From Promethearchaeota archaeon (lineage in GTDB: Archaea; Asgardarchaeota; Lokiarchaeia; Sigyniarchaeales; SOKP01): a stretch of DNA of 64,000 bases. Position numbers and translations under genes: made by a program. The notes below the pieces were generated by a model that was not told the DNA's origin, searched no databases, and saw nothing but the letters and a program-made list of their open reading frames with translations. Location: the NCBI GenBank assembly GCA_048939015.1, contig JBHLPW010000002.1, positions 32,001 through 96,000 of the forward strand, written 5' to 3'. The first letter of the stretch is position 1. The number at the start of each line of letters is the position of its first letter. Positions 706 through 25,850 of this stretch are shown here, piece by piece.

Positions 706-3276
706 TTAGTCACATTCTTCTGGTATAACTAAAGGCTGGGTTCCAGTTTGGTTGCCAATTAGTTTTAATATCTCAGGACCAAAAACATTAGATAATATTT
801 CATTCATCTGTTTTCCGCCTAAATAGCTTTGACAGCCTAAATGAAGTTTATGAAAGGTATCACCTAGGTTTTCTTCAACTTCCTTAATGAATTCGATTAT
901 TTTATCTTCTAATGTTGGTGATGGAGTCTCGTTCAGTAAAAAGACTACTTTAAATTCTTTATTGGTAAAAAATCCACCTGAAAGATGGCCAAGGCTAAAC
1001 TTTATTGATAAAATTTCGCCTACTTTCAATGCATGGCTCGCTATATGATCCAATGCTGTGAGAAAACCAGAAAAAATTGTATTATCAACATCTTCAGTAG
1101 TAAAATTTAATTCATATTGATTAGCACCACTTTCTCGATGTTGTACCAGTAATTTCTGAATATTTTCTATATCTGGATCGACTATAAAGGGTTTTGTTAA
1201 GAAATTATAGATATCCTCAGACGAGTTTTTTAGCACTTTGAACAATTTTTTGTTTATATAACCATACTCAGGGCCAGTTGGTTCTTCCCAACTTGGATCA
1301 TTTATCAATTCTGTTGCTGCTCGTCCGCTATTTTTCATTATACCTACTTGCGCTCCAAAAACGATTGCTAAATGAAATTCAAAGGCAGAAATATCTCCAC
1401 CGTTTATTCCAATAAGTTTAACTTTACTTGGTTCAATACCAGATTTCATTATATCATACCAATATTGAATCGGTTCTCTAATACTGAAATCTTTTCCTTC
1501 TGTAAAATGAACTGTACTATATCTTTTATCTAATTCAACGTGAGCAGGCATATGACTTGGAACATAACCAATTGTTTTTATTTGATCTGGGTAGTTATCT
1601 TGGATTTCTCCTACTGTACCGCTAATTCCTGCTTTGGTACCACCTGAAATTATTGTTCCTTCAAAATTCCTAAAAGCTTCAATTATATTAGTGTTAAATA
1701 TTTCTAAATTTCGTTCAATACGTTTATCTGTCCCCCCAGCAATAATTACAATAGGCTCATCAAGATTTCTTTCCATTTGTTTTATTTCGGAATCTAATGC
1801 CAAAGTGGACTCATTAATCATTTTATCAGTTTTCTCAACTATATTTGGATGAAATAAAATCCCCAATCGAAGAACTTGTCTGATAAAATCGATGCCTTTT
1901 AATTTATCTTTTATTAGTTTAAGGTTATTCAGAGTATTTAGAGTAGTTTCAATCATCCAAATATCAGAGCTGAATCTTATTCCTTTTAAATAATAATCTA
2001 AAGCTTCATTTACATTTCTAAGAAATAAGTTAAATAAACCTACGTCAAAAAAAGCCCATGGAGTATCGACCATTACTTCTATTTGTCTTAACCGTATTTT
2101 AATTGCTTTCTGAATCATATCATAATTTCTTTCAATATGAACTAAATCTCCTGTTTGCTGAATAACTAGGATTAAATAATTACCTAAAGGATATGGATCT
2201 CCTGGATTCACTTTTAATGCTTGTTTATAGCATTCCAAAGCTTTAGTATAATTATTTTGACTTTTATATGTACCTCCTAATGATGACCATCCATTTGAAT
2301 CAAAAGGATTTCTTTGAGCTGCCTCTATTAAAAATTTCTGACCCTGAATAAATGCTGGGCTTGAGGGATTTTTTTTGTATTTTTGATGATGAGATACACC
2401 CAAATCTCTTAAAACTTCTGCTACTTCTAATTCTGATACTTGTTTAAAGGCTTCAGTTTTCATCAATTCATTTAAAATTTCAATACTTTTATCCATATCG
2501 TTAATTGCCATCGCCAATCTCGCAATTCTATAACCAATTTTTAAATTCTCTTTGTCAGCTTCATAGACCATTTCTAATCTCTCTATTTCAGACTTTATTT
2601 TTTCATTAGACATATAAGTGATTATGGTTGATTCATAATCCCGCATTTTTTTCATGATTTTATCTAATGATTCATCTTCAATAGTCAATAATGATTTTAC
2701 TCGGGTGAGTTCTTGTTCATATGGTTTAGGGACTTTAAAGTCGTGTTGGTTAAAGACTTTGTATTGATTCGCAGCCCATCCATAACTCAAATATGTACAA
2801 ATTTGAATTTCTGCTTTTAAATTGAACATTTTCTCAGGGATATTAAGTTCAAGTCTATCATATATCTTTAAATCAGGCATCAACTGAACAGTGTAGGTCT
2901 GAAAATGTCCAAGAGAAGTACTTATCTCACTTAGTTCGGAGATTTCCAAACCATCTACAGTATCAAATAAAAAATTATCTCGAATTGCTTCACTAACAGC
3001 ATTTAATTCGTTGATATTTGGTAAAAGTATCCTAAATCCGATTAAATCAGTAATTTCTAGAAAAGGATTGGTAATTTTCTTTTCTGATTTAAAGAGTTTG
3101 TTTGCAAAACTAGAAATCTTCTTTACTCGCCCTTGTATGATGAATTCAGATGAATGACCTCTTACTATATTCTTGAGGATCTTCTTCATAATTTTATGAA
3201 ATTCTTTGTAAAATGGACGAATTTCTTTATATTTATTAATTTGCTCTTCGTATGGTTTGCGTTGTTCTAATTCCAT
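706..3276 (-). CDS. Multidomain protein: degenerate RelA/SpoT-like nucleotidyltransferase, TPRs, SLOG (TRPM/LSDAT-like) and C-terminal longin-like domain
   Basis: GRVKKISSFANK, ITDLIGFRI and AEIQICT (RelA/SpoT-like); WSSLGGTYKSQNNYTKALECYKQALKVNP (TPR); IVIIAGG, IISGGTKAGISGTVG, INGG..SAFE and SGRAATEL (SLOG); DNTIFSGFLTALDHIA..GEILSI (Asgard longin-like). Confidence 0.75.
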   Translation of the reverse strand: MELEQRKPYEEQINKYKEIRPFYKEFHKIMKKILKNIVRGHSSEFIIQGRVKKISSFANKLFKSEKKITNPFLEITDLIGFRILLPNINELNAVSEAIRDNFLFDTVDGLEISELSEISTSLGHFQTYTVQLMPDLKIYDRLELNIPEKMFNLKAEIQICTYLSYGWAANQYKVFNQHDFKVPKPYEQELTRVKSLLTIEDESLDKIMKKMRDYESTIITYMSNEKIKSEIERLEMVYEADKENLKIGYRIARLAMAINDMDKSIEILNELMKTEAFKQVSELEVAEVLRDLGVSHHQKYKKNPSSPAFIQGQKFLIEAAQRNPFDSNGWSSLGGTYKSQNNYTKALECYKQALKVNPGDPYPLGNYLILVIQQTGDLVHIERNYDMIQKAIKIRLRQIEVMVDTPWAFFDVGLFNLFLRNVNEALDYYLKGIRFSSDIWMIETTLNTLNNLKLIKDKLKGIDFIRQVLRLGILFHPNIVEKTDKMINESTLALDSEIKQMERNLDEPIVIIAGGTDKRIERNLEIFNTNIIEAFRNFEGTIISGGTKAGISGTVGEIQDNYPDQIKTIGYVPSHMPAHVELDKRYSTVHFTEGKDFSIREPIQYWYDIMKSGIEPSKVKLIGINGGDISAFEFHLAIVFGAQVGIMKNSGRAATELINDPSWEEPTGPEYGYINKKLFKVLKNSSEDIYNFLTKPFIVDPDIENIQKLLVQHRESGANQYELNFTTEDVDNTIFSGFLTALDHIASHALKVGEILSIKFSLGHLSGGFFTNKEFKVVFLLNETPSPTLEDKIIEFIKEVEENLGDTFHKLHLGCQSYLGGKQMNEILSNVFGPEILKLIGNQTGTQPLVIPEECD

Positions 3277-3610
3277 AATACCATTATCACTCCTTATTTC
3301 TATTTGATTAAATTTTTCTTGAATTTCTTCTCTTACTAGAATTTTTACTGATTATTATTTAAAATTTTCTCAATAAATACAATTTAAAGAATAATGATCG
3401 ATAGAATTTAGATTCTCTATCAAGTTTAAAATAATGCCTAGACAAGATAAAATCGGATTTAATTTGAAAAAGTCATTCTATAGTAGTATTTTGAAACTAA
3501 ATTTTCATTTTCACTTAATTTGATAAAATGATTGTATAGAGATTATTATATTATATTAGAGAAGCTTTTTTGACTGTTATTTTCCTTATTTAAGATGGAA
3601 TTTTAAAATA

Positions 3611-3796
3611 GTGGAGATGATTAAAATACCAGAGTTAGTTTGTGATATTTGTGGTTCAAGAAAGGAAGTTCCTACATGTTGTGATACATCAATGATAGTT
3701 AAGGATGAATATTTATTATGTTGTTGCTCTGATGAGTGTGGATATCAACCAATTCCCGAATGTTGTGGTCAATTAATGAAATATATAGAACATTAA
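3611..3796 (+). CDS. Small Cys-rich metal-binding protein with two desulforedoxin-like motifs
   Basis: 10 Cys in 61 aa, arranged as two C..CG...PxCC...M units. The true start may be the ATG at 3617. Confidence 0.65.
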   Translation: MEMIKIPELVCDICGSRKEVPTCCDTSMIVKDEYLLCCCSDECGYQPIPECCGQLMKYIEH

Positions 3797-3839
3797 AAAT
3801 ATAATTTAAAATTATAACAATTTGAAAAAAAATTTGATT

Positions 3840-5900
3840 TTAAGCTGTAGGAGAAACCTTTTTTTGTAAACCTCTTAAAATTTCTTCATATAATTTCTCT
3901 ATAAAACCCTCAAAATCATTCTCAGTATACTTCACATTTAACATCTGCCATAATAAAACAGGTATGTCATCCTCATTATCATATACTGGAATAATTTTTA
4001 ACATTCCCTTTTTTCTCATCTGGAATGCAGCTTGCCATTCATCTTTAACAGCATTAGATTTTACTGAATTTTTCGAGCAGAAAAGTACGAATATATCCGT
4101 ATTTTTTAGAGTATCTTCCATGAATTCTACGATGTTTTGTTTACTGTCAGCTTGCCAATACGAAACCTTTTTTATTTCTGGATATACTTCTAATTCTTTC
4201 ACTATATCTGATATTCGAAAATGCTCAGCATCCAAAGTAGAATAACTGAGAAATACTCTCTGGTTTTTAATGTCCTCAAGTGGTGATACTGGTGCTATTT
4301 CTTTTGCTTTTTGATTAAAGGCGATTGATTTTGATGCTGAAAAATATTCCGCGTCAATTTCCCGATTTTTAATCATTTCAAGAATTATTTGTTCGATTTG
4401 ACTTTCATCTTTAACATCACTCTTTTCAACAATATCCATGAGTTCAAGGCGGGCAAATTTAGTTCCATAGTTCAAGATAGTCTTTTTGATCTTTTTCTTG
4501 ATATTAAACTGGAAGTCCTTACAATAATCAATTTTTTCTTCAATTTTCTCTAGTAATTCAGAAAGTTCATATTCTCTTGCTAATTCTTTTATTTCAACTA
4601 GTTTTAAAATTGCGTCATAAAATTTACTATTTTCAATTAGATTTTCAATTTTAGATAATTTCTTTTGTATCTTTTTATCCATTTTAGCTTGTTCTTTATC
4701 TCTCTTAATTTCTTCTTCCAGTGTTTTACACTGTTCTATTTTTTCTTCTGCTTCTTTCAAAATTTCTGATAATTCATATTCTTGTGCTATTTGTTTAACT
4801 TTTTCTAATTCTCGAAATGCATTTCTTAGCTTATTATCTTCAATTAAATCTTCAATTTCAGATAACTGAGTTTGAAGTTCGTCTTTAACTCTCTGTTCTT
4901 CTAATTCTTCTCTTTTTTCTATTTTAAGTGTATTAACTTCCTTTAATTTTACCTGCGCCTTTTTCATTAATTCTATCAATCCAAAATTTCTTGCAGATGC
5001 TATTATATTATTTAGATTTGCAATAGCTTCATCATATCTATTTCCTCTAATTAATTCATCAATTTCTGACATTTTTTGCTGAAGACCAGTTTTAATTTTT
5101 CGTAGTCCCTCTTCTCTTTCCTCTTTGGAAATTTCTTTAAAGATAATAACAAAATCCCTTACTCGAGCATTTATCTCATGATTAGTGATCATATCGTCAA
5201 CAATGGTTTCAAGAGTTTCACGTTTTATTCCTGTTTTTGATATAATTTCGAAAAAAGGCAGTTCCTTTGATTGAAATTGCATGGTTTTGATAAAATCAAT
5301 AGTTTTTCCTTCAACTAATTGTTTATCCTCCCAATCAGTACCAACTACTACTTCCTGTTTAATTTCGATAGGTTCAACTTCTAATACCTTCCGTTTCATA
5401 GGTTTAGCCTTTACTTCTTTTACTTTCGTCGATTTAACACGTCGAAATATTAATTCTCCTTCCTTACTTACAACAGCAACAACATTTGTTCCAATTAAAC
5501 CAATCCCAAAAATCAAACATAAATAGAATCCAGCTGTAAAGGTTATAGGATTTACAATTACTTGATTTAATGAGATTATAGAAGGATAGATCATTAAGCT
5601 AATTAAAATTAAAAGAAAACCAATTCCACCGAATAGGAGTGCCTTTTTTTTTCTTTCTGGGGTCAATAGTATAATTGAGATAATGGCAAGTGCAACACCT
5701 ACCCACCCCCCAAAAATTAAAGCAATATAACCCTCATATTCTGTCGTATAACCTTCCCATACAGGAGTTTCGGGTGGTGGTGGATATGGAGGGTGATGTT
5801 CTAAATAATATGGAAGAAATGCTGAAACCAATACAATTATAATTAAGATTCCATAAATTAATCTTATAAAATTGAATTTCTGTATTCTAATTTCTGTCAT
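3840..5900 (-). CDS. 4-TM membrane protein with PCI/winged-helix-like domains, three helical repeats and a C-terminal TIR domain
   Basis: Four N-terminal hydrophobic segments; two wHTH/PCI-like segments (IVDDMITNHEINARV, IILEMIKNREIDAEY); TIR motifs VFLSYSTLD, FVLFCSKNSVKSNAVKDEWQAA and KIIPVY at about 3870-4259. Confidence 0.85.
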   Translation of the reverse strand: MTEIRIQKFNFIRLIYGILIIIVLVSAFLPYYLEHHPPYPPPPETPVWEGYTTEYEGYIALIFGGWVGVALAIISIILLTPERKKKALLFGGIGFLLILISLMIYPSIISLNQVIVNPITFTAGFYLCLIFGIGLIGTNVVAVVSKEGELIFRRVKSTKVKEVKAKPMKRKVLEVEPIEIKQEVVVGTDWEDKQLVEGKTIDFIKTMQFQSKELPFFEIISKTGIKRETLETIVDDMITNHEINARVRDFVIIFKEISKEEREEGLRKIKTGLQQKMSEIDELIRGNRYDEAIANLNNIIASARNFGLIELMKKAQVKLKEVNTLKIEKREELEEQRVKDELQTQLSEIEDLIEDNKLRNAFRELEKVKQIAQEYELSEILKEAEEKIEQCKTLEEEIKRDKEQAKMDKKIQKKLSKIENLIENSKFYDAILKLVEIKELAREYELSELLEKIEEKIDYCKDFQFNIKKKIKKTILNYGTKFARLELMDIVEKSDVKDESQIEQIILEMIKNREIDAEYFSASKSIAFNQKAKEIAPVSPLEDIKNQRVFLSYSTLDAEHFRISDIVKELEVYPEIKKVSYWQADSKQNIVEFMEDTLKNTDIFVLFCSKNSVKSNAVKDEWQAAFQMRKKGMLKIIPVYDNEDDIPVLLWQMLNVKYTENDFEGFIEKLYEEILRGLQKKVSPTA

Positions 5901-6137: not shown

Positions 6138-9100
6138 TTACTTTATTTTTTTCTTAAGTTGCCATGAAATTGATATTAAACTGAAAATCATTATTAAATA
6201 AAGCATATTAATATTATAAGTTGGTATAGCGGGAGATTCTGATTTCTTAATAGAAACCTCAGCATATCCTTCATGACCCAATGTATCAGTAGCATAAAAT
6301 CGTAGAGTGTATTCTCCAGGAGGTAATGCATTCCAATATTCTTGGATAATATCTCCAGTAAGGGTACAAGTTTCATTTATTTCTCCACCATCTAATGTAT
6401 ACCATATCTCATCTAAATTACCTTCATTTATAGTTAATTCAAAACTTGGAGCTCTATCTGTAAATGCTTGATTGTCTTCTGGAGAATTAATCGTGATCTC
6501 TGGTGAAAGTACATCTTTCCTCACAGTTACTTCTTCCCAATCAGAATTCCCTACCGAATCATTCGCATAAAATCTTATAGTAACAGTCCCATTGCCAAAA
6601 TTATCCCATTCCGTTTGGTCAATGTTTCCCATAGGTTCAGTAATAAGTAAGATTGTTACTCCTCCGTCCAAAGTATACCACATAATGTTCAAGTTTGGTT
6701 CTACAATAATTAAAGAAAATGAAGGAGTAGTGCTTCCGAAGAGATAATTTGAGATCGGTGTGGTGATTGTAATCTCTGGTGGAAGCACATCTTTTCTTAC
6801 TAACACATCTTCCCATCCAACATTACCAGCTGTATCATTCGCATAAAATCTAATAGTAACCGTTCCGTTTCCAAATTTACCCCATTCTATTTGGTCAATA
6901 TTACCCGTAGGTTCAGTAATAAGTACAATTGTTAACCCACCATCCAGGGTATACCACATAGTATCTAAATTAGGTTCAATAACTGTTATGTTAAAGTATG
7001 GTTCAGAACTTCCGAAAAGGTCATATAGAAGTGGTGAATTGATTGTAATGTTAGGATTGATAATATCAGCTATACAAGAAATTGTAAAATACCGAATTAA
7101 TGAAGATCTCATATATCCAACTGTATCATTTCCAAACACTTGAATGGTATGTAATCCATCTGAAGGCAATGGAATTGTAGTATTTCCTAAGATAGTCTTT
7201 ATTGTTTGAGAATCTAGTGAATATCCTTGCCAATCAAGAGCAATTTCACTCTCATAACTAAGTAATAGCCCTTCATTTAAATTATCTCCAATTTTATAAT
7301 TTGGATCCCAGGAATACCCTATCGCATCTACATATCTATTATGGCTATATGGCATTGACCAGCTTAACATATAGGTGGGTGCTATATTATTAATAAAGCT
7401 CAATGGTCCAATTTTAGTCCCATTAATATATAAATTCCATTGATATTGAGACAAACCCATATAACCTCCATTTGTAGCTTCAAAATCCATTCTAATATGA
7501 TACCACTTATTATTTATAACAGGAAGACCAGTATCATGCCAACCGGTATTATCTAGATATAAGAATTTATCTCCTACTCCGATTGCTACACAACAAATGT
7601 CTACAGTACCATTATGAAGTCTGATTTGAAATGAATGAGAAGAAGTGTAAGTAGTAATTTCATTTGCAGCCCAACATTCAAAAGTTCCATTACTCTGTGG
7701 TCCTGTAGTGAATTGCTGGAAAAAAATCGCCCCTCCTTCATAGCAATTGTATACCTTCTTATGACCATTAAATTCATCTATGACCTTCCAATTATCTTCA
7801 GAATCCAAAAAATTGAGAGGATCATTATTATTATGAGTATCTTCAAATCCATAGGTAGCTGGATAATAGCCACTCATCGGATCAGTATAGGTTTTGTTTT
7901 CAGGAGTGATTATATCTATAGGGAAATATTGAACGGTGAAATACCTAATCTGTGAATAATATTCTAATCCTAGTGAATCATTTCCAAATACTTGAACTGA
8001 ATGTACTCCATTCTCTGGTATCGGAATTGTTGTGTTTCCATAAATAGTTTTAGAGATGTGATCATCCAAAGAATACCCTTGCCAATCAAGAACGATTCTA
8101 TTTTTATAACTTAGCAATAAACCTTCATCCATATTAGCTCCAATTTGATAATTAGAATCCCATGAATACCCAATAGCATCAAAATACATATAATAATTCA
8201 TTTCTGTACTCGCAGTTGATATCCAAAATAGTGTTGCTTGAGGTTCATTATTTTCAAATTTAAAGGGTCCATATTTAGAGCCATTAATATGTATAAAACA
8301 GGAGTATTGATTCAATCCTTTATAATTCCCTGTTGAACATTCAAAATCAACACTTAAATGATACCAATTATTTGAAGAGGCAGGACACAATGAGTAATCC
8401 GTTCCATTAGTATATCGAAATTCATTATTCCTAATCTCAACAGCGAAAAGCGAATCAGTTACTACATCCAAATTCGCCAATCGAAAGGCTCCCGCCTGGG
8501 AAGCATCTGATATCCTCCACCAAAATTCTACTGTTCCATAAACTTGTACTGAGGAAAAGTTATTCCAAAGTTTTACAAGTCCAGCCCCAGCATTATTATT
8601 ATCATAGAGTTCTAAAACCTTTTGATGTCCATCAATTCCAGAAATGACTTGAACAGATGTATCTGAAGCTTCTAAAATTGTCCATCCTTCTGGATAAGTG
8701 CCATCCTCATCATTTTCAAATCCATGAGTTGCTAGGTAATATCCATCCATTGGTTGAGTATATGTTTGATTAACTGGAGTGACTAATTTAATCGAGGAAA
8801 CCTCAAAATGTTGTAGTCGTGATTGATATAACTCTCCTAATGAATCATTTCCAAATACCCGAATAAGATGTTCCCCATCTACTGGCATTTTTATAGTTGA
8901 ATTTCCTAGTATAGTTTTTATAGGCTGTAAATCAAGTGAAAATCCTTGCCAATCAAAGACAGTAGAGTTTGTAAAACTAAGTAATAACCCTTCGTTTAAA
9001 TTATCTCCAACATTATAGCCGGGATCCCATGAATAACCTATAGCGTCGACGTAATATGTAAGATTATTACTCGCACTAGAATAAATCTGAAAATTATGTA

Positions 9101-12100
9101 CATCAACTAGATCACCATCCCTAAAACCATAATCATCAGCTATCAAGGTATTATCGATATAGATATCGAATGTATCAGTCGAACAATTAAATTCAACACT
9201 AAAATGATACCATTTATCATTAATACAGGGAATAAGATCAGACCAAGATGTAGAATCATAACATTGAAACATATTTCCATCTGTTCTAATGACTACTGCT
9301 AGCTCACTGATAGATCCTCTTATTCTAATATATATATTCTCAGCTGAATCATTTGTACATATCCAAAATTCAACTACTCCATTTGATTTAGCGGAGGCAA
9401 AACTATCTAAAATATTAGCCGAAGGTGAAGAATTAGTGTCAATAAATTCCACAACTTTTTTATGATTTATGTATTCTTCAATTACTTGTACTGAAATGCC
9501 CTTCGCTACATCTGATACTAATCTTGAAGGTCTTGATCCAATTGAATCTTCTTCAAACCCAAAAGTTGCTGGATAATATCCACTCATAGGTTCATTGTAT
9601 ACTTTATCTTCAGGTGTTTTAATCTCTATTCCATAATCAACTTTAAAATATCTTAATTCAGATTCGTATAATATCCCTCGTGAATCCTCACCAAACAATT
9701 GAATTTGATGCACTCCTTCATCCAAATATGGAATGGTAGTATTTCCAAATATTGTTTTATTTATTTGTCCCTCTAATGAATAACCTAACCAAGTTAATTC
9801 GGTATTCTGAATAGTACTAATCAGTAATCCATCATTTGCATTATCGCCAATATTATAGTTTGAATCCCATGAATACCCAATAGCATCGGCATAGCATATA
9901 TCTCCATTAAAATGATAGAAATTTTGACCACTTGGAGTATTATTATATCGGAAACTAAAGGGTCCAAATTGTTCGTTATCTATAGCTACTTGCCAATACC
10001 ATTGTGATAAGCCCATATATCCTCCACTAGAGGTTTCAAAATCAATTCTCATATGATACCATGTGTTATCCAAAGTAGATTTTCCTAAATTATACATACC
10101 ACCAGTATGATTATTATAAACAAATTTTTCGTTATCTATTCCAATAGAAAAAGCTTGTCCTTGCCCAATTTGATATATCTGTGATGATATGGCATAAGAT
10201 GCATCTTCAATTGCCCACCAAAATTCAATAGTACCATGTTCTTCTGGTGTTTCAAATATATGATTTATCGAAATATCTCCAGGCCCAGGATCCTCCATTT
10301 TTAAAACCTTATTATGACCTTGAAATTCATCGATTATTTCACAAACACCATAAGTGTCGACCCACCCAAAAGGATCACTTGCATCTTGGTCATTCTCGAA
10401 TCCAAAAGTGGCAGGATAATATCCGTATGTTGGTGCAAAATAAGTTTTGTTTTCAGGTGTGCTAATATTAAAGAATGAACCTGTATCTACTGAAAAGTAC
10501 CTTAATTCAGAATTATAGATACTTCCTAACGTATCATTACCAATTACCTGAATATGGTGACTTCCATCTTTAGGAAAGGGGATTGAAGTATTTCCTAATA
10601 TTGGTATTATTGATTGACTGTCCAGAGAATATCCTTGCCAATCTAGATTAGTGCTATTCTCATAACTTAGTAGTAATCCTTCATTGAAATTATCACCAAC
10701 ATTATATCCTATATCCCATGAGTAACTTATTGCATCAGCCCAGAATTCAATAGCTTGAGTATTACCGGTATATAACTCTACTTCATAAGCATCTCCAGTG
10801 AAAGAATAATTAGCTATAGGTGATTCAAAATAGAGAGATCCGTCAGCTTGATAAATCCTAAATTTATATTTATTTGCATCTAAATCTTTATAGGTTCCAT
10901 CTCCAGAAAAATCTATACTCACTCGAAACCATTCATTTATAGAATTTAAACCTGTATTAATTTCGGTAGTACCATTTTTATAATACCACACATTATCATA
11001 GCTATATACATCAACTATATACTGATCGAGCGAATTTTTTATAAAAAAATGAGTGTGGTAATTATGACTATTATAGTATATCCAATATTCAACTGTTCCA
11101 CTAGTAATATTTTCATAGAATATTTGTGCAGGATATAGGTGAATACCACCTCCGGGATCGTTCAGATACAGAACATTATTGTGCCCATCTTTAGAATCAA
11201 CTACGTATACTCTTCCTTGATAAGAACCATATCCTTCTTCTGACCATGCATTTGGAAAATCCCCACTTTTATCATTCTCAAATCCATAGGTGGCAGGATA
11301 ATAGCCACTCATTGGACAAGTATAGATCTTATCTTCAGGTGTGATTAAATTTAAATGATGAACTGAAAAGCAACGAATATTAGATTGAAAATTAGTCCCT
11401 AATGAATTATTTCCATATACCCGAATTGAATGTGGTCCATCCTCTGGCAATGGAATCGTAGCATTCCCTAAAATTGTTCTATTAATCTGTCCATCTAAAG
11501 AATAGCCCATCCAATCAAGATTGGTATTATTTTCATAACTTAGTAATAATCCTTCATTGAAATTATCACCAACATTATATCCTATATCCCATGAGTAACT
11601 TATTGCATCAGCCCAGAATTCAATAGCTTGAGTATTACCGGTATATAACTCTACTTCATAAGCATCTCCAGTGAAAGAATAATTAGCTATAGGTGATTCA
11701 AAATAGAGAGATCCGTCAGCTTGATAAATCCTAAATTTATATTTATTTGCATCTAAATCTTTATAGGTTCCATCTCCAGAAAAATCTATACTCACTCGAA
11801 ACCATTCATTTATAGAATTTAAACCTGTATTAATTTCGGTAGTACCATTTTTATAATACCACACATTATCATAGCTATATACATCAACTATATACTGATC
11901 GAGCGAATTTTTTATAAAAAAATGAGTGTGGTAATTATGACTATTATAGTATATCCAATATTCAACTGTTCCACTAGTAATATTTTCATAGAATATTTGT
12001 GCAGGATATAGGTGAATACCACCTCCGGGATCGTTCAGATACAGAACATTATTGTGCCCATCTTTAGAATCAACTACGTATACTCTTCCTTGATAAGAAC

Positions 12101-13250
12101 CATATCCTTCTTCTGACCATGCATTTGGAAAATCCCCACTTTTATCATTCTCAAACCCATAAGTTCCGAAATAATACCCATTCATTGGTTTTGAATAAGT
12201 TTTCGCTTCTGGTGTTATTATATCTATTGGAAAATCTACTGTGAAATATCTAATTTCAGATTGGTGATTTATTCCTAATTGATCCATCCCAAAGATATGA
12301 ATTGTATGAAGCCCATCTTCTGGCATTCTAATTGTCGTGTTACCAAGAATAGGTCTTTTATTTTGACTATCTAAAGAATAACTTTTTCTATCAAGTGTGC
12401 TATTAGAATCAAAACTAATTAATAAGCCTTCATATAGATTATCTCCCACTTGATAGTTAGGATCCCAAGAATATCCTACGGCATCATAAAAAGTCGAATA
12501 CCCAGATTCAGTAGTCCTTGTATAAATTTGAAAACTACCAAGGGATTGGTGGTCGTGAGTACCTATCATTGGATAAGGACCATATTTTTCCCCATCGATA
12601 TATACTTGCCATTTCTCCTCCGGTAACCCACTATAGTTTCCCTCAGTACATTCAAAATCAATATGAATGTGATACCACGTATTATCTGAAGCAATTTTTC
12701 CCACATCATACCATAGAAAGCCAGGGCTATAATATCTTCTAAATTTATCCTCCCGTATTGAGATACAAACCGCATAGCTACCTCCAGGAGGCTCATATAT
12801 TACTGCATCGGCTGGGTCAGTTGCATCTGTAACTCTCCACCAAAATTCAATAGATCCATATGATTGAGTTTTTCCAAATGTTTGTATAGCTCGAGTTTCA
12901 TAACTAGTATCTGTATCTTGTAATTCTACTACTTTCTTATGACCATCTAGATCACCTATTATATCTGCTGCGCCGCCTTTTCTATCTATTTTCCAACCAT
13001 TCGGGTCAGTATTTTCTCTATCATTTTCAAATCCAAAAGTTGCAGGATAATATCCTTCCATAGCATCTGTATATGTTTTATTTTGCGGAGTTACAATTGT
13101 TATACTATTGCTACTTAATTTTAAATCTACTTTTTCATCAGAAACTTTATTTAATCTATTGATTCCAAAATTATTCATAAAAGCATAACTACATAACCCA
13201 ACTAAAAGGATTAAACTTAAGGAGATTAATCTTATTCTTATCTTTTTCAA
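6138..13250 (-). CDS. Giant surface protein A: signal peptide, 7 LamG/ConA-like cassettes in an Ig-like scaffold, 3 Ig-like stalk repeats, Loki-CTERM-like anchor
   Basis: TTG start with GGTGA SD; seven GYYPATxGFE...DAxGYSWDxxYxxGDN units with GTxEFW and WYHxxxDF motifs; tail PAIPTYN-hydrophobic helix-KKKIK; many N-x-S/T sequons. Confidence 0.85.
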   Translation of the reverse strand: MKKIRIRLISLSLILLVGLCSYAFMNNFGINRLNKVSDEKVDLKLSSNSITIVTPQNKTYTDAMEGYYPATFGFENDRENTDPNGWKIDRKGGAADIIGDLDGHKKVVELQDTDTSYETRAIQTFGKTQSYGSIEFWWRVTDATDPADAVIYEPPGGSYAVCISIREDKFRRYYSPGFLWYDVGKIASDNTWYHIHIDFECTEGNYSGLPEEKWQVYIDGEKYGPYPMIGTHDHQSLGSFQIYTRTTESGYSTFYDAVGYSWDPNYQVGDNLYEGLLISFDSNSTLDRKSYSLDSQNKRPILGNTTIRMPEDGLHTIHIFGMDQLGINHQSEIRYFTVDFPIDIITPEAKTYSKPMNGYYFGTYGFENDKSGDFPNAWSEEGYGSYQGRVYVVDSKDGHNNVLYLNDPGGGIHLYPAQIFYENITSGTVEYWIYYNSHNYHTHFFIKNSLDQYIVDVYSYDNVWYYKNGTTEINTGLNSINEWFRVSIDFSGDGTYKDLDANKYKFRIYQADGSLYFESPIANYSFTGDAYEVELYTGNTQAIEFWADAISYSWDIGYNVGDNFNEGLLLSYENNTNLDWMGYSLDGQINRTILGNATIPLPEDGPHSIRVYGNNSLGTNFQSNIRCFSVHHLNLITPEDKIYTCPMSGYYPATYGFENDKSGDFPNAWSEEGYGSYQGRVYVVDSKDGHNNVLYLNDPGGGIHLYPAQIFYENITSGTVEYWIYYNSHNYHTHFFIKNSLDQYIVDVYSYDNVWYYKNGTTEINTGLNSINEWFRVSIDFSGDGTYKDLDANKYKFRIYQADGSLYFESPIANYSFTGDAYEVELYTGNTQAIEFWADAISYSWDIGYNVGDNFNEGLLLSYENSTNLDWQGYSLDSQSIIPILGNTSIPFPKDGSHHIQVIGNDTLGSIYNSELRYFSVDTGSFFNISTPENKTYFAPTYGYYPATFGFENDQDASDPFGWVDTYGVCEIIDEFQGHNKVLKMEDPGPGDISINHIFETPEEHGTIEFWWAIEDASYAISSQIYQIGQGQAFSIGIDNEKFVYNNHTGGMYNLGKSTLDNTWYHMRIDFETSSGGYMGLSQWYWQVAIDNEQFGPFSFRYNNTPSGQNFYHFNGDICYADAIGYSWDSNYNIGDNANDGLLISTIQNTELTWLGYSLEGQINKTIFGNTTIPYLDEGVHQIQLFGEDSRGILYESELRYFKVDYGIEIKTPEDKVYNEPMSGYYPATFGFEEDSIGSRPSRLVSDVAKGISVQVIEEYINHKKVVEFIDTNSSPSANILDSFASAKSNGVVEFWICTNDSAENIYIRIRGSISELAVVIRTDGNMFQCYDSTSWSDLIPCINDKWYHFSVEFNCSTDTFDIYIDNTLIADDYGFRDGDLVDVHNFQIYSSASNNLTYYVDAIGYSWDPGYNVGDNLNEGLLLSFTNSTVFDWQGFSLDLQPIKTILGNSTIKMPVDGEHLIRVFGNDSLGELYQSRLQHFEVSSIKLVTPVNQTYTQPMDGYYLATHGFENDEDGTYPEGWTILEASDTSVQVISGIDGHQKVLELYDNNNAGAGLVKLWNNFSSVQVYGTVEFWWRISDASQAGAFRLANLDVVTDSLFAVEIRNNEFRYTNGTDYSLCPASSNNWYHLSVDFECSTGNYKGLNQYSCFIHINGSKYGPFKFENNEPQATLFWISTASTEMNYYMYFDAIGYSWDSNYQIGANMDEGLLLSYKNRIVLDWQGYSLDDHISKTIYGNTTIPIPENGVHSVQVFGNDSLGLEYYSQIRYFTVQYFPIDIITPENKTYTDPMSGYYPATYGFEDTHNNNDPLNFLDSEDNWKVIDEFNGHKKVYNCYEGGAIFFQQFTTGPQSNGTFECWAANEITTYTSSHSFQIRLHNGTVDICCVAIGVGDKFLYLDNTGWHDTGLPVINNKWYHIRMDFEATNGGYMGLSQYQWNLYINGTKIGPLSFINNIAPTYMLSWSMPYSHNRYVDAIGYSWDPNYKIGDNLNEGLLLSYESEIALDWQGYSLDSQTIKTILGNTTIPLPSDGLHTIQVFGNDTVGYMRSSLIRYFTISCIADIINPNITINSPLLYDLFGSSEPYFNITVIEPNLDTMWYTLDGGLTIVLITEPTGNIDQIEWGKFGNGTVTIRFYANDTAGNVGWEDVLVRKDVLPPEITITTPISNYLFGSTTPSFSLIIVEPNLNIMWYTLDGGVTILLITEPMGNIDQTEWDNFGNGTVTIRFYANDSVGNSDWEEVTVRKDVLSPEITINSPEDNQAFTDRAPSFELTINEGNLDEIWYTLDGGEINETCTLTGDIIQEYWNALPPGEYTLRFYATDTLGHEGYAEVSIKKSESPAIPTYNINMLYLIMIFSLISISWQLKKKIK
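10674..12155. repeat. Exact 609-bp direct repeat (10674-11282 = 11547-12155, offset 873 bp)
   Basis: Base-by-base comparison found no mismatch. The first mismatches are at 10673/11546 and 11283/12156. Confidence 0.95.
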
Positions 13251-13257
13251 ACAAATT

Positions 13258-13330
13258 TCACCAAAATTTATTTTGACTATTTAATATAATCTGAGATACA
13301 AAAATGTCAAGTTAGTATTTAAAAATTTGT
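13258..13330 (-). promoter_or_regulatory. Putative TATA box (TTTTTAAATAC, 13315-13325) and GGTGA SD for surface protein A
   Basis: Homologous to the upstream region of the paralog at 20241-20320. Confidence 0.5.
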
Positions 13331-13403
13331 CAAAAATTTAATAAATCAAATCTAAGATAACAATTTGACCAGACGTAATCAAAGAAAAAGAAAAAAGAGA
13401 ATT

Positions 13404-22097: not shown

Positions 22098-25000
22098 TTA
22101 TCTCAATATTTCCTCATAGAGTTTCTGGATAAATTCATCAAAGTTATCTTTTGTAAATTTAACATTCAATAAAGGCATTAATAAGAATGGAATTAAGTCC
22201 TCTTGTTCATATACGGGAACTATTTTCATCAAACCTTTTTTCCTCATTTGAAAAGCTGCCTGCCACTCATCTTCCACGGCTTTAGATTTTATAGAATTTT
22301 CTGAACAAAAGAATACAAATACTTTACTTAGTCTTAAAGTTCTTTCCATATAAGTTACTATACTCTCACCGCTATCTGCTTCCCAAAAGAATACTTTATC
22401 TATTTTTGGAAATGCTTCTAGTCGTTTGGCAATTTCATCAATATTGAAATGCTCCGAATCTAGAGTGGAGTAGCTTAAAAATACATTTAAGCCTCGAGTA
22501 AAGTATGTTCTTATAGCATTTATATATAGTGGATAGTGAGCGAAATCTTCTGTAGTTACATTTCCTTCATAAAGGTCTCTTTTGAATTGTCTTATTCTTT
22601 CGAAATTTTCTACAATAACATTTTTATCGGGAAAGGTTTCTGAAAAAACCTGCTCCCAATTGTTCTTATCAGTAATTATCGAATTTAATTGAATGAAATC
22701 AAGAGACTCCATTTCATCGGTAGTTGAGGGAAGCTTCTTAGGTGTTAATAATTTAGTTTTACTTTCAATTGTAGTCCTTATATATTCAGGGATTCCTTCT
22801 TGCCACCAAAGAGATTTATAGACACCTTTAAGTTTTGCTTTAGCAAAACTACGGATATTCGTTTCAAAAATTTCAACATCATTTTTGGCAGTCTCAATTT
22901 GTTTTTTGAGCGCTGCTCGTCTTTTCATTCTGGGTCTTATAACTAGGAAAGTGGAAATGGCACCTACAACACCAACAGAAATAACAATAATTGCGATTAT
23001 CACTCCGGGATCTATCCCCGCCGGTAATTCCCCTGAAATATACAAAATAGTTTCATCTGTATTATCGACTTCATTATCATCTCGAAAGCCTCCCGATTTT
23101 GAGCTATATGTTTCATTAATTTCATTATTAGGATCCAATATAATTTCCACTAACACGTTTCCACCTTGGTATAGTTCAGCTCCCTGTATGAGATCATTAT
23201 ATACTTCATCCACATCCAAGTCTATGGGGTTATCAGTGTTGTTAAATAAAATTACATTCAAATGTTCGATCCATATTATAATTATAACATTTTTGGCATC
23301 CCATATTCCATTATTTGTGATTGTGATATTTACTACAAAGGGTTTACCTATATCTGCTTCTATCGGATCAAACTTTAAGACTGCTAGATTAGGCATAGGA
23401 TACCAATAACCTAGCAATGGTTTTGTACCTAAGCCTGTTTCAATACCGTCTAAAAAGGTGTCTCCATCCGTATCATTATTATGAGGATCTGTCCCATTAG
23501 TAAATTCATGATAATTTATGAGGAAATCAGTATCAACATCAGTGATATTATCAGCATCGTTCAATGGATTTAAAATATTAAATACTTCCCATCCGTCAGG
23601 CATTCTATCTGAATCTGTATCAGAATTAAGAGGATTTGTAGAGTTTTTCCACTCCCAAAAATCAAATAACTCATCAGAATCAGAGTCAGGGTTTGTTACA
23701 TTTGTACGATATCCGTCTAACCCTAAAAGATATTCCTCAAGATTAATAAATTTATCTCCATCGGTATCTACGTCAAATCGATAAAATAATGGAAACTTAT
23801 CTTGGTTATAAGCCGTTCCAAAAATTGTCTGAGGATTATCTCCAATTGCATTATAATCTAAATCTAAACCACTATAATCATCCCAAAAATTCCCCACTGA
23901 TCCATCATCCCATATGTTTTTCTTCCCATTATCTTGAGCTTGTAAATTATTCCCTATAAAATTGTTATAGTAGATGCTATTATTCTCACAATATTCATTC
24001 TGGATAAATAAACCAAGTTCACTATTCCTTATTGTATTTCTAAGAAATGAGCTATTAGAACAGCTACTTAATATTATCCCATATTGACTATTTCCATCTA
24101 GATTATTATCTGTAAAGTTATTTAGCGAACACAACTGAGCTAATATTCCGTTAACATTATTAGATATTTGATTATTTATAAATCGGGAATAAGTACTGTA
24201 AACAATTTGGAATCCAGCTCCAAAAAATCCACTCTCCATTAATATTTTGGTACTCTCTGTTAACGTATTTCCTTCATATGTATTATTAAAGCCGAAAACA
24301 TCTTCTATACCAATTAAATTTTGTGAAGCAGAACAATTCATAATTTTACAGTTATTACTAAAGCCAAGATTAATGCCATAAGCGGTATTCATTGATGCAT
24401 TAATATTGTAGAGTGAAATATTATCGCAATATAGGATATTAAGAGCTAAAGTACACTTAGTAAGATTCAAATTTGAAATTATTGAATCAGTACACCCAGA
24501 TAAAATTATTTGCCCGGCATTCGCAAAATTAATCGGTTTCAGATTATTTATATGATAATAATAATAAATAGGCTTCCCATTTACTAAATTTGATGTATCA
24601 ATAAAGAGGATAGGTTCAAAAAACGTTGGATGAATATTTATCCCACAATTAGTCATTAAATTTCTTGATAGGTTATTGTTATCACATGATCCTGGTGATG
24701 CTGAAAGGATGTATACTCCTCCGAGAAAGTTATCATATAAATAGTTATTAATTATGTTGTTTTCATAACTATCTTCGATTTCTATTCCCATTCCATTCTG
24801 ACTAATATTATTATTAGATATAGTTATATTGAAGCAATCGACTAAGCTTAAAGCTACTCCAAGTCCGAAACTAATTGCAGGATCGATGAACTTATTATAA
24901 TTTTTAGTAATATTATTATTTTCGATTGAAGAGTTACTGTTTTGAATTGATATAATACCCAAATATGTGTTTTGTGTGAAAGTATTATCCCTTATTGTAT

Positions 25001-25793
25001 CGTTCATGCAATAAAACAAGGATAAAGCAGTCGTAGTATAAGATATTTCTAGGTCAAAAATTTGGGTTCCACTGCAGTTAATAAGGATTAATTGTCCTGG
25101 TTGAGGAAAATTACCTGGTACCAAATTTTTCTCATTAAATTTATAATAAAGAACCTTTCCATTAATTAAATTGGTTTCATCAATTGAGTGGGAGATTAAA
25201 TCCTCAACTAATGGAAGTCCACCATTAAATGGAAAATTTAATCCACAATTTGTGAAATTATTTTCAGTTAGAGTGATATATCTGCAATCTTGGATTGTTA
25301 TACCAGCGTGACTGTTATTATCAAAAATATTTCTAAAAATCGTATTATTATTAGACGATTGAAGTCCAACTCCTTTCCCTGCTTCATGATAATAATGGTT
25401 AATATTATTATTAAATGAATTATTGAATATAAAATTAAAGTTACTTCCCAATAATGTTATTCCAGCACCACCATTTCTGCAAACGAAATTTTGTGTAATA
25501 TTATTATACTCACACACATCTAAGACTATTCCTGTATTTTCATTGTATGACAAATTATTACGATGTATTAAAGTGAAGAAACTACTTAATGAATAAATTC
25601 CTGCATCATTGTACATCATGTTATTATTTTTAATTGTTGCATTGTTTACTTCGATTAGTTCGATTCCAAAATCATTAAAGTTTGCTGTACTCTTTTCAAT
25701 AGTGATATTTGTACAATATGATAAGGAAAGCCCATTTTTGGTACAATTATTGGTAATTATATTCGAAATAATATAATTTCTACCACCAAGCAC
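22098..25793 (-). CDS. C-terminal part of TIR receptor 1: NosD/CASH beta-helix, Ca-binding DxDxD repeats, CARDB-like Ig, TM, Swt1-like HEPN, TIR
   Basis: N/I/G-rich beta-helix repeats; GNFWDDY cap; DTDGD/DSDSD repeats; PNLAV..ITNNG..DPNNEINE (CARDB-like); TM at about 22938-23003; ETNIRSF..WW..IP..LDF.QL..II..NW..F...F (Swt1-like HEPN); VFLSYS..VEDEWQAA (TIR). Confidence 0.8.
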   Translation of the reverse strand: MLGGRNYIISNIITNNCTKNGLSLSYCTNITIEKSTANFNDFGIELIEVNNATIKNNNMMYNDAGIYSLSSFFTLIHRNNLSYNENTGIVLDVCEYNNITQNFVCRNGGAGITLLGSNFNFIFNNSFNNNINHYYHEAGKGVGLQSSNNNTIFRNIFDNNSHAGITIQDCRYITLTENNFTNCGLNFPFNGGLPLVEDLISHSIDETNLINGKVLYYKFNEKNLVPGNFPQPGQLILINCSGTQIFDLEISYTTTALSLFYCMNDTIRDNTFTQNTYLGIISIQNSNSSIENNNITKNYNKFIDPAISFGLGVALSLVDCFNITISNNNISQNGMGIEIEDSYENNIINNYLYDNFLGGVYILSASPGSCDNNNLSRNLMTNCGINIHPTFFEPILFIDTSNLVNGKPIYYYYHINNLKPINFANAGQIILSGCTDSIISNLNLTKCTLALNILYCDNISLYNINASMNTAYGINLGFSNNCKIMNCSASQNLIGIEDVFGFNNTYEGNTLTESTKILMESGFFGAGFQIVYSTYSRFINNQISNNVNGILAQLCSLNNFTDNNLDGNSQYGIILSSCSNSSFLRNTIRNSELGLFIQNEYCENNSIYYNNFIGNNLQAQDNGKKNIWDDGSVGNFWDDYSGLDLDYNAIGDNPQTIFGTAYNQDKFPLFYRFDVDTDGDKFINLEEYLLGLDGYRTNVTNPDSDSDELFDFWEWKNSTNPLNSDTDSDRMPDGWEVFNILNPLNDADNITDVDTDFLINYHEFTNGTDPHNNDTDGDTFLDGIETGLGTKPLLGYWYPMPNLAVLKFDPIEADIGKPFVVNITITNNGIWDAKNVIIIIWIEHLNVILFNNTDNPIDLDVDEVYNDLIQGAELYQGGNVLVEIILDPNNEINETYSSKSGGFRDDNEVDNTDETILYISGELPAGIDPGVIIAIIVISVGVVGAISTFLVIRPRMKRRAALKKQIETAKNDVEIFETNIRSFAKAKLKGVYKSLWWQEGIPEYIRTTIESKTKLLTPKKLPSTTDEMESLDFIQLNSIITDKNNWEQVFSETFPDKNVIVENFERIRQFKRDLYEGNVTTEDFAHYPLYINAIRTYFTRGLNVFLSYSTLDSEHFNIDEIAKRLEAFPKIDKVFFWEADSGESIVTYMERTLRLSKVFVFFCSENSIKSKAVEDEWQAAFQMRKKGLMKIVPVYEQEDLIPFLLMPLLNVKFTKDNFDEFIQKLYEEILR

Positions 25794-25850
25794 GGAGAGA
25801 CCAGTTGAAGTATGGGACAGATTAAAGTTGGTAATTACTGAATTATTACA

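What the first reader, a model, noticed from the sequence alone, without database searches (positions are those of the whole stretch)
706..5900. Possible TIR-to-SLOG second-messenger circuit
Seen: a SLOG-domain protein (SLOG at about 1305-1762) lies 0.56 kb downstream of the first TIR gene on the same strand, separated by one small opposite-strand gene. Its motifs (IIAGG, ISGGTKAGISGTVG, NGG, SGRAATEL) resemble the TRPM/LSDAT-type SLOG. Known: the TRPM2 N-terminal SLOG (MHR1/2) binds ADP-ribose, and in type I Thoeris the ThsA SLOG reads the cyclic ADPR isomer made by TIR proteins. Inference: the membrane TIRs may make an NAD-derived messenger that this protein reads, with output through the longin-like domain rather than a cell-killing effector.
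Basis: inference. Interest (0 to 1): 0.78.

Follow-up and report, generated by a model that had tools for sequence, protein, structure and literature searches.

The report
Asgard TIR–SLOG–RelA/SpoT signalling module
A membrane TIR-domain gene and a neighbouring four-domain gene (alarmone-synthetase-like, TPR, TRPM-type SLOG nucleotide sensor, longin tail) stay together across many Asgard archaeal genomes, so they most likely form an undescribed Thoeris-like NAD-derived signalling pair.

Summary
Gene 706-3276 (-) carries an LSDAT/TRPM-type SLOG domain. It starts 563 bp downstream of a 4TM-coiled-coil-TIR gene (3840-5900, -). A conserved 61-aa Cys-rich gene lies on the opposite strand between them.

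The SLOG protein also has an N-terminal RelA/SpoT nucleotidyltransferase domain, TPRs (TPR-S-like in 16 of 28 relatives) and a C-terminal longin/roadblock-fold domain.

- 24 of 30 assessable homologous loci have an NADase-type gene next to the RelA-TPR-SLOG gene. It is TIR_2 in 21 and the TIR-like NADase domain DUF4062 in 3.
- The loci span several Lokiarchaeial genera, metagenome contigs and one bacterial contig.
- The sensor parts and gene orientations differ between loci.
- In two genomes the gene is only a remnant and no TIR gene lies nearby.

The claimed output is less well supported. RelA/SpoT is the constant partner of the SLOG. The longin domain is missing in one clade and replaced by RyR in bacterial relatives.

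Best reading: a Thoeris-like system in which a TIR product (ADPR or a derivative) is read by SLOG and/or TPR-S and gates the RelA/SpoT enzyme. No biochemistry was tested. Earlier follow-ups in this scan reached a similar reading on orthologues in other genomes.

The parts
706..3276 (-). Gene for the 856-aa RelA/SpoT-TPR-SLOG-longin protein (P0001), the proposed signal receiver and effector
   Evidence: ORF and translation; Pfam; 47 homologues with the same architecture
2662..3276 (-). RelA/SpoT nucleotidyltransferase domain (aa 1-205; Pfam core aa 49-169)
   Evidence: PF04607 E 6.5e-9, 36.5 bits against cut-off 27. Best solved relatives are RelP 6fgk (7e-7) and RelQ. R50/K52, D77 and E156 are kept; EIQIRT is EIQICT here. 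It is the only RelA_SpoT hit in the genome.
1792..2661 (-). TPR region (aa 206-495), TPR-S-like in part of the family
   Evidence: Several TPR Pfam families. PF20308 TPR-S matches 16 of 28 family members, best E 4.7e-6; in P0001 itself only E 0.032.
1183..1788 (-). LSDAT/TRPM-type SLOG domain (aa 497-698)
   Evidence: PF18171 above cut-off; fold matches TM1055 at Z 18.4 and TRPM2 MHR1/2 at Z 16.8
769..1173 (-). Longin/roadblock-fold C-terminal domain (aa 702-836)
   Evidence: Secondary-structure order is strand-strand-helix-strand-strand-strand-helix. Matches TRAPP Bet5 at Z 10.9, AP sigma and MglB. No Pfam hit.
3611..3796 (+). 61-aa Cys-rich small gene between the two genes, on the opposite strand; role unknown
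   Evidence: ORF; 75-85% identical copies at the same place in G026, G024, G001, G023, G005 and G036; no family hit
3840..5900 (-). Gene for the 686-aa 4TM-coiled-coil-TIR protein (P0002), the proposed sensor and signal generator
   Evidence: ORF; TM helices at aa 11-145; TIR_2; weak ThsB hit in PADLOC
3894..4256 (-). TIR domain (aa 549-669) with the putative catalytic Glu621 (nt 4038-4040)
   Evidence: PF13676 E 1.3e-14. The Glu is invariant in 8 partner TIR domains (A5). It aligns with the DE of the Cat1 TIR.
22098..25793 (-). Second membrane TIR gene (beta-helix ectodomain, one TM, C-terminal TIR); a possible further input
   Evidence: Pfam NosD/Beta_helix plus TIR_2; TM at aa 931-949; TIR domain 64% identical to that of P0002
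27023..33586 (-). Third membrane TIR gene (SBP_bac_5 plus beta-helix ectodomain, one TM, TIR); a possible further input
   Evidence: Pfam; TM at aa 1899-1917; TIR domain 61% identical to that of P0002

Best explanation
This is a Thoeris-like two-component nucleotide-signalling module.

The TIR proteins are the sensors. Here they are membrane proteins with a cytoplasmic C-terminal TIR domain. In relatives the TIR is joined to TPR, to a beta-propeller or to a STAND NTPase. On activation the TIR cleaves NAD+ and releases ADP-ribose or a cyclic or conjugated derivative (inferred).

The neighbouring protein reads that molecule with its TRPM-type SLOG domain, possibly together with its TPR-S-like repeats (inferred from context and fold). 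It answers by switching on its N-terminal RelA/SpoT nucleotidyltransferase (inferred). That enzyme would make an alarmone-type nucleotide or pyrophosphorylate another acceptor, slowing growth or reprogramming the cell.

The longin-fold tail is a clade-specific addition. It is probably an oligomerisation or small-GTPase-docking platform.

Shown here: the domain identities, the conserved gene linkage, remnant genes with no TIR gene nearby, and purifying selection on all four domains. Not shown: any enzymatic activity, ligand binding or phenotype.
For: 1. Domains.

2. Linkage in the genus. A TIR_2 gene lies directly upstream on the same strand in G000, G026, G024 (five TIR genes in tandem), G001, G005, G013 (three in tandem) and G032. 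In G023 one gene lies between.

3. Linkage further afield. The same holds in G220, G232, G218, G234, G245, G248, G250, G254 and G272. G189 has a convergent neighbour and G224 a TIR fragment. Divergently oriented TIR genes sit next to homologues P0044 and P0041, which are 38-40% identical to P0001.

4. DUF4062-STAND genes sit next to P0050 (a bacterial contig), P0037 and the G219 gene. Preprints from 2026 report DUF4062 as a TIR-like NADase that makes ADPR.

5. Tally: 24 of 30 assessable loci. Genomes hold only 1-13 TIR_2 hits each.

6. The partners differ in sensor part (ectodomain plus TM, MalT-like TPR, LVIVD, STAND) but keep the catalytic Glu. This is the pattern of ThsB proteins.

7. Loss. 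In G036 the RelA-SLOG gene has an internal deletion, and the TIR gene present at the syntenic place in G023 is gone. G217 keeps only a longin remnant and has no TIR within 9 kb.

8. Patchy distribution: 36 of 400 genomes of the phylum and 20 of 53 of the genus. It is the only RelA_SpoT domain in the genome, and no SpoT-type HD_4 hydrolase was found at 95% completeness. It is therefore not a housekeeping stringent response.

9. dN/dS is 0.06-0.25 in all four domains.

10. Known Thoeris types pair TIRs with SLOG effectors (types I and III) and with a TPR effector (type VIII).
Against: No biochemistry exists for any step.

Six assessable loci show no TIR or DUF4062 gene in the fetched flanks: P0036, P0033, G147, G276, G230 and P0047. 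Three of these have short flanks.

In the window the two genes are separated by an opposite-strand gene, so they are not one simple operon.

The RelA/SpoT site is partly atypical in this clade. EIQIRT reads EIQICT. The acceptor motif GYxSxH of RelP/RelQ and of the 669-aa and bacterial relatives reads GHFQTY. Two relatives (P0034, P0035) have lost the catalytic Glu.

Most positive loci come from one archaeal family, so the count overstates independence.

The neighbourhood holds giant surface proteins and is not a classical defence island. The only PADLOC hits are a weak ThsB match and the candidate PDC-S33.
Confidence: 0.6

Rival explanations
1. The SLOG reads the TIR product, but the RelA/SpoT domain is a worn pseudo-enzyme. 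The signal leaves through the longin domain, for example by regulating a small GTPase, without a growth-arresting enzyme.
For: R160C in EIQIRT, a diverged GYxSxH motif, and P0034/P0035 lacking the catalytic Glu. The longin domain has the lowest dN/dS, 0.06. Its fold matches GEF/GAP platforms such as TRAPP, Mon1-Ccz1, MglB and Ragulator.
Against: The longin domain is absent in the 669-aa clade, which is also TIR-linked, and is replaced by RyR in bacterial homologues. RelA/SpoT is present in all of them. D77 is invariant, and K52 and E156 are conserved in at least 90%. RelA dN/dS of 0.12 is similar to that of the SLOG.
Confidence: 0.18
2. Reverse direction. The RelA/SpoT domain makes an alarmone-like signal and the TIR proteins are NAD-depleting effectors activated by it.
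For: RelA/SpoT enzymes are classical signal makers. TIR domains act as NADase effectors in CBASS, Pycsar and Avs systems.
Against: The partner TIR proteins carry ectodomains, TPR, beta-propeller or STAND sensor parts. No nucleotide-receiver domain was found in them. The recognised ligand-binding domain (SLOG) sits in the RelA/SpoT protein.
Confidence: 0.08
3. The SLOG is an enzyme (a LOG-like N-glycosidase), not a sensor. It would process or destroy the TIR product, so the protein modifies or terminates the signal.
For: LOG enzymes are among the fold matches at Z about 15. The Glu of the NGGxxxxxE motif is nearly invariant. Aravind and colleagues predict catalytic roles for some SLOG clades.
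Against: The closest matches are non-catalytic ligand-binding SLOGs of TRPM channels, plus TM1055. Pfam places the domain in LSDAT_prok, not in the LOG family.
Confidence: 0.07
4. The neighbourhood is coincidental. TIR receptor genes are simply common in this genomic region, and the RelA-SLOG protein works independently.
For: Close relatives also share the downstream housekeeping genes, so part of the synteny is inherited. Six loci lack a TIR gene.
Against: Adjacency holds across three orientations, at least five TIR-protein architectures, two NADase families, and archaeal and bacterial contigs. Remnant genes have no TIR gene nearby. There are only 1-13 TIR genes per genome.
Confidence: 0.05

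Closest known systems
Thoeris type I (ThsB TIR + ThsA SIR2-SLOG) and type III (several TIR genes + SLOG effector ThsD)
   Same: TIR gene or genes next to a gene with a SLOG domain. The TIR sensors are variable and often multiple, with one constant receiver. The catalytic Glu is kept.
   Different: The effector domain is RelA/SpoT, not SIR2. The SLOG is of the LSDAT/TRPM clade. TPR and longin domains are added. The hosts are Asgard archaea. The TIR partners here are membrane receptor-like proteins. No defence phenotype is known. RelA/SpoT does not appear as a Thoeris effector in the text or held supplements of the 2025 survey, but two of those supplement files were cut when stored.
Thoeris type VIII (TIR + ThsI: CMP hydrolase-TPR) / BcTir-BcTpr / TPR-S systems of Burroughs and Aravind 2020
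   Same: An N-terminal enzyme fused to sensor-type TPRs and encoded next to a TIR gene. LSDAT is reported as an occasional companion of the TPR core.
   Different: The N-terminal enzyme is RelA/SpoT. SLOG is fused in the same chain. The TPR-S match of the window's own protein is weak (E 0.032). I could not read the 2020 paper, so prior mention of a RelA/SpoT version there cannot be excluded.
TRPM2 N-terminal MHR1/2 (LSDAT SLOG) that binds ADP-ribose
   Same: It is among the best structural matches (Z 16.8, 190 residues aligned, 17% identity). It belongs to the Pfam LSDAT family pair. NUDIX genes or fusions recur in relatives, recalling NUDT9H of TRPM2.
   Different: The protein is not a channel. 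Ligand-contact residues were not compared. ADPR binding is untested.
Small alarmone synthetases and toxic SAS (RelP/RelQ; toxSAS such as CapRel and FaRel)
   Same: A single RelA/SpoT synthetase domain without a hydrolase domain. Best sequence matches are RelP and RelQ. There is a PADLOC candidate PDC-S33 hit.
   Different: Scores are far below the NCBIfam equivalog cut-offs. The acceptor motif has diverged. No adjacent antitoxin is recognised. The domain is fused to sensor domains.

Membership tests
Thoeris-like TIR signalling system (broad sense) | TIR-domain protein with the catalytic glutamate | tested here: met
   TIR_2 at E 1.3e-14. Glu621 is invariant in 8 partner TIRs. It aligns with the Cat1 TIR DE motif.
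Thoeris-like TIR signalling system (broad sense) | Conserved adjacency of the TIR gene to an effector gene that has a small-molecule sensor domain | tested here: met
   24 of 30 assessable loci. The SLOG domain is confirmed.
Thoeris-like TIR signalling system (broad sense) | The TIR makes a signalling molecule that activates the effector, giving anti-virus protection | not testable with these tools
   Needs biochemistry and infection assays.
Thoeris type I (ThsA/ThsB) | The effector is SIR2-SLOG (ThsA) | tested here: not met
   No SIR2 domain in Pfam and no ThsA hit in PADLOC. The N-terminal domain is RelA_SpoT.
SLOG superfamily, LSDAT (TRPM-type) clade | Pfam LSDAT_prok match above the gathering score, and a Rossmann-like SLOG fold with glycine-rich loops | tested here: met
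   29.0 bits against 25.4. 25 of 28 relatives match. Z 16.8-18.4 to TRPM2 MHR1/2 and TM1055.
SLOG superfamily, LSDAT (TRPM-type) clade | Binds ADPR-type ligands | not testable with these tools
   No ligand docking or binding assay was available. Contact residues were not compared.
RelA/SpoT homologue synthetase domain | Pfam RelA_SpoT above cut-off; ATP-binding RxKxxxSxxxK; Mg-binding Asp; catalytic Glu of ExQIRT | tested here: met
   36.5 bits against 27. R50, K52, S56, K60, D77 and E156 are present. D77 is invariant and E156 at least 90% conserved.
RelA/SpoT homologue synthetase domain | Canonical guanine-acceptor motif GYxSxH and the Arg of ExQIRT | tested here: not met
   The window has GHFQTY and EIQICT. 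The 669-aa and bacterial relatives keep GY(x)SxH and QIRT. Which residues are canonical rests on my recollection of RelSeq and RelP/RelQ.
Longin/roadblock fold | Strand-strand-helix-strand-strand-strand-helix fold matching solved longin domains over most of the domain | tested here: met
   pLDDT 79. Z 10.9 to TRAPP Bet5 (127 of 145 aligned), and Z 9-10 to AP sigma/mu, VAMP7 and Mon1-Ccz1. Foldseek E 2e-4 to MglB.
Longin/roadblock fold | Sequence-family membership (a Pfam longin or roadblock model) | tested here: inconclusive
   No Pfam hit at E up to 1. The Atlas gives only a weak lead to a roadblock/Fuz_longin cluster, score 0.83.
TPR-S sensor repeats (PF20308) | Match to PF20308 | tested here: inconclusive
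   P0001 scores E 0.032, below cut-off. 16 of 28 relatives match at E up to 0.01, best 4.7e-6.

The most novel reading that the evidence does not exclude
Asgard archaea may run a three-tier receptor cascade. Toll-like membrane receptors (ectodomain, one TM, cytoplasmic TIR) would turn an extracellular cue into an NAD-derived second messenger. A TRPM2-type SLOG would read it and gate both an alarmone-type RelA/SpoT enzyme and a longin platform for small GTPases. That would make it a prokaryotic forerunner joining TLR-like sensing, ADPR signalling and membrane-traffic regulators, and not only an abortive-infection device.
Probability: 0.2. Interest if true: 0.9.

Novelty: new variant of a known kind. 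Interest (0 to 1): 0.72.

Why it matters
If correct, this adds a new effector class (RelA/SpoT) and a new receiver type (the LSDAT/TRPM SLOG) to TIR-based signalling. It extends that signalling to Asgard archaea, the closest prokaryotic relatives of eukaryotes.

The TIR partners here have the topology of Toll-like receptors. The receiver has the fold that binds ADP-ribose in TRPM2, and it ends in a longin domain, a eukaryote-signature module. The module therefore gives a concrete, testable case for the origins of TIR, ADPR and TRPM-type signalling. It also gives a rare case of alarmone-type enzymes in archaea.

Tried and rejected
1. The search for related loci on genome contigs gave no answer. 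I replaced it with the genome search over 400 genomes of the phylum.
3. Burroughs 2015 and Burroughs & Aravind 2020 are not held. What I say of them rests on citations in other papers and on memory.
4. hhalign of three DUF4062 domains against eight TIR domains was weak (probability 18%). The TIR-like nature of DUF4062 rests on 2026 preprint abstracts.
5. PDB sequence search of the SLOG-longin half found nothing. The TPR region gave only generic TPR hits.
6. The Atlas look-up of the longin part gave scores of 0.86 or less, which are leads only.
7. The 526-aa neighbour and the ~790-aa proteins carrying a related C-terminal domain have no informative family hits.
8. Complex prediction was not used, because the report claims small-molecule signalling, not protein-protein binding.
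9. The idea of a housekeeping stringent response was rejected. This is the only RelA_SpoT hit, no HD_4 hydrolase was found, and the distribution is patchy.
Full report
**What is in the window.**
- The minus strand of 1-6 kb holds a class I methyltransferase gene (2-640).
- Next is an 856-aa gene (706-3276, P0001), then a 686-aa gene (3840-5900, P0002).
- A 61-aa Cys-rich ORF lies between the last two on the plus strand (3611-3796, P0003).

**The SLOG protein (P0001).** Pfam gives four results:
- RelA_SpoT at aa 49-169 (E 6.5e-9, above cut-off).
- Several TPR families at aa about 230-400.
- LSDAT_prok, "SLOG in TRPM, prokaryote", at aa 508-661 (E 7.7e-7, 29.0 bits against 25.4).
- Nothing for the last 160 residues.

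An AlphaFold model of aa 480-856 built on 24 homologues has pLDDT 85.9.
- Its first domain (aa 497-698) aligns to TM1055 (Z 18.4), to the TRPM2 MHR1/2 domain with and without ADP-ribose (Z 16-17, about 190 residues, 17% identity), and to LOG and Moco-carrier proteins (Z about 15). The "TRPM/LSDAT-type SLOG" call is therefore right.
- The tail, modelled alone (pLDDT 79), has the strand-strand-helix-strand-strand-strand-helix order of longin domains.
- The tail matches TRAPP Bet5 (Z 10.9, 127 of 145 residues), AP sigma/mu, VAMP7, Mon1-Ccz1 and Fuzzy, and the related roadblock proteins MglB and LAMTOR. "Longin-like" is right at the level of fold. No sequence family matches.

**The RelA/SpoT domain.** Its best solved relatives are the small alarmone synthetases RelP (6fgk, 7e-7) and RelQ.
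- Across 28 family members the Mg-binding Asp (D77) is invariant. K52 and the catalytic Glu (E156) are at least 90% conserved.
- The window's protein reads EIQICT instead of EIQIRT. The acceptor motif is GY(x)SxH in the 669-aa and bacterial relatives, as I recall it for RelSeq and RelP/RelQ, but GHFQTY here.
- Two relatives (P0034, P0035) have lost the Glu.
- The domain is under purifying selection: dN/dS 0.12 against the G026 orthologue at dS 0.85. This is like the SLOG (0.14). The longin domain is at 0.06.
- It is the only RelA_SpoT hit in the genome. No SpoT-type HD_4 hydrolase was found at 95% completeness.

**The TIR protein (P0002).** It has four N-terminal TM helices, a long coiled-coil region and a C-terminal TIR_2 domain (E 1.3e-14).
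- The glutamate that aligns with the catalytic DE of the Cat1 TIR is Glu621. It is invariant in eight partner TIR domains from different loci.
- Two further TIR genes lie upstream on the same strand, at 22098-25793 and 27023-33586. Both have large ectodomains (beta-helix; SBP_bac_5 plus beta-helix), one TM helix and a C-terminal TIR.
- The genome has 11 TIR_2 hits and a single LSDAT_prok hit.

The RelA-TPR-SLOG family has 47 members in the protein collection, named by sources as Lokiarchaeota or Promethearchaeota. It occurs in 36 of 400 genomes of the phylum and 20 of 53 of the genus, which is a patchy distribution.

- **Same genus.**
  - A TIR_2 gene lies directly upstream on the same strand in G026, G024 (five TIR genes in tandem), G001, G005, G013 (three tandem TPR-TIR genes next to a 669-aa form without longin, 38% identical) and G032.
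  - In G023 one 526-aa gene lies between.
- **Further genomes.** Scoring with a TIR HMM built from the Pfam-confirmed domains gives the same arrangement in G220, G232, G218, G234, G245, G248, G250, G254 and G272. G189 has a convergent neighbour and G224 a TIR fragment.
- **Metagenome contigs.** Homologues P0044 and P0041 each have a divergently oriented TIR gene next door.
- **DUF4062 partners.** Three loci instead have a DUF4062-STAND NTPase gene next door.
  - These are P0050 on a bacterial-looking contig (with a NUDIX gene between), P0037 and G219.
  - Three 2026 preprints report DUF4062 as a TIR-like NADase producing ADP-ribose. My own profile comparison was weak.
- **Negative loci.** Six loci show neither domain in the flanks I could fetch: P0036, P0033, G147, G276, G230 and P0047. 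Three of these have short flanks.
- **Not assessable.** Five loci end at a contig edge.
- **Total and caveat.** 24 of 30 assessable loci are positive. Many are kin, so the count is not a statistic. Even so, the association recurs in three orientations, with at least five sensor architectures and two NADase families.

**Loss.**
- G036 is colinear with G023. Its RelA-SLOG gene has lost aa 147-752, and the 1638-aa TIR gene is missing between the same flanking genes.
- G217 keeps only a longin remnant and has no TIR within 9 kb.
- G185 and G186 carry a short SLOG-longin ORF with an 84-aa TIR fragment nearby.

**Which domain is the output?**
- RelA/SpoT, TPR and SLOG are present in every clade. The longin tail is absent from the 669-aa clade and replaced by RyR in the bacterial relatives.
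- This makes RelA/SpoT the likelier conserved output and the longin tail a clade-specific addition. Its strong constraint suggests it matters in this clade.
- The TPRs match the TPR-S "sensor" model in 16 of 28 members. In type VIII Thoeris a TPR effector is thought to perceive cADPR. The reader of the signal could therefore be SLOG, TPR-S or both.

**Comparison with the known.**
- Thoeris type I (TIR + SIR2-SLOG) and type III (several TIRs + SLOG effector) are the closest systems. Type VIII and BcTir/BcTpr (TIR + enzyme-TPR) share the enzyme-TPR logic.
- The 2025 survey of TIR systems lists 29 effector types. I found no RelA/SpoT among them in the text or the held supplements, but two supplement files were cut when stored.
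- I could not read Burroughs & Aravind 2020, which may mention related fusions.
- I therefore rate this a new variant of a known kind. Earlier follow-ups of this scan on orthologues in other genomes reached similar readings. I tested the linkage and the "worn site" claim independently here.

Noticed in passing
window 3611-3796 (+): A 61-aa Cys-rich (zinc-ribbon-like) gene is divergent from the RelA-SLOG gene. It is 75-85% identical at the same place in six related genomes, and is retained even in G036, where the RelA-SLOG gene is degraded. It is absent from the 669-aa-type loci. It could be a regulator, but its role is unknown.
   Followed up: partly
window 20411-21991 (-); also L022 2566-4146, L025 9755-11335, L033 8318-9898, L075 5525-7105, L078 6806-8386: A 526-aa coiled-coil protein without a family hit repeatedly follows a receptor-type TIR gene. 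It may be a further partner of these TIR receptors.
   Followed up: partly
window 25793-25910 (-): The beta-helix ORF 25851-26825 and the TIR2 ORF 22098-25793 are in the same frame, separated by a single stop codon. This is either one long receptor gene broken or read through at one stop, or a sequencing error.
   Followed up: partly
L036 2340-7054 (metagenome contig next to P0044): The TIR gene that is divergent from the RelA-TPR-SLOG homologue is followed by ThiF (E1-like), Prok-JAB and UFC1-like (E2-like) genes. This resembles the Cap2/Cap3-type regulators of CBASS.
   Followed up: no
L035 7565-7999; proteins P0047 and P0048; L040 14976-15409: NUDIX domains recur with this family, as an upstream gene in the bacterial operon, fused to RelA_SpoT-TPR-S proteins, or nearby. 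A NUDIX enzyme could hydrolyse ADPR or the RelA/SpoT product.
   Followed up: no
L085 3929-6031 (G219): A second gene with TPR-SLOG-longin but no RelA/SpoT domain lies directly downstream of a 669-aa RelA-TPR-SLOG gene, as if the four-domain protein were split between two paralogues.
   Followed up: no
G000:C99:47581-47928 and many ~760-790-aa ORFs in the genus: The longin-like tail has many weak paralogues inside ~760-790-aa proteins of unknown family, often in tandem arrays. This looks like a lineage-specific expansion.
   Followed up: partly
window 6138-20234 (-): Two giant surface-protein genes (2370 and 2276 aa; signal peptide, Big_13, C-terminal TM) lie between the first TIR gene and the 526-aa gene. 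Compared with G023 they look like an insertion into the TIR/RelA-SLOG locus.
   Followed up: no
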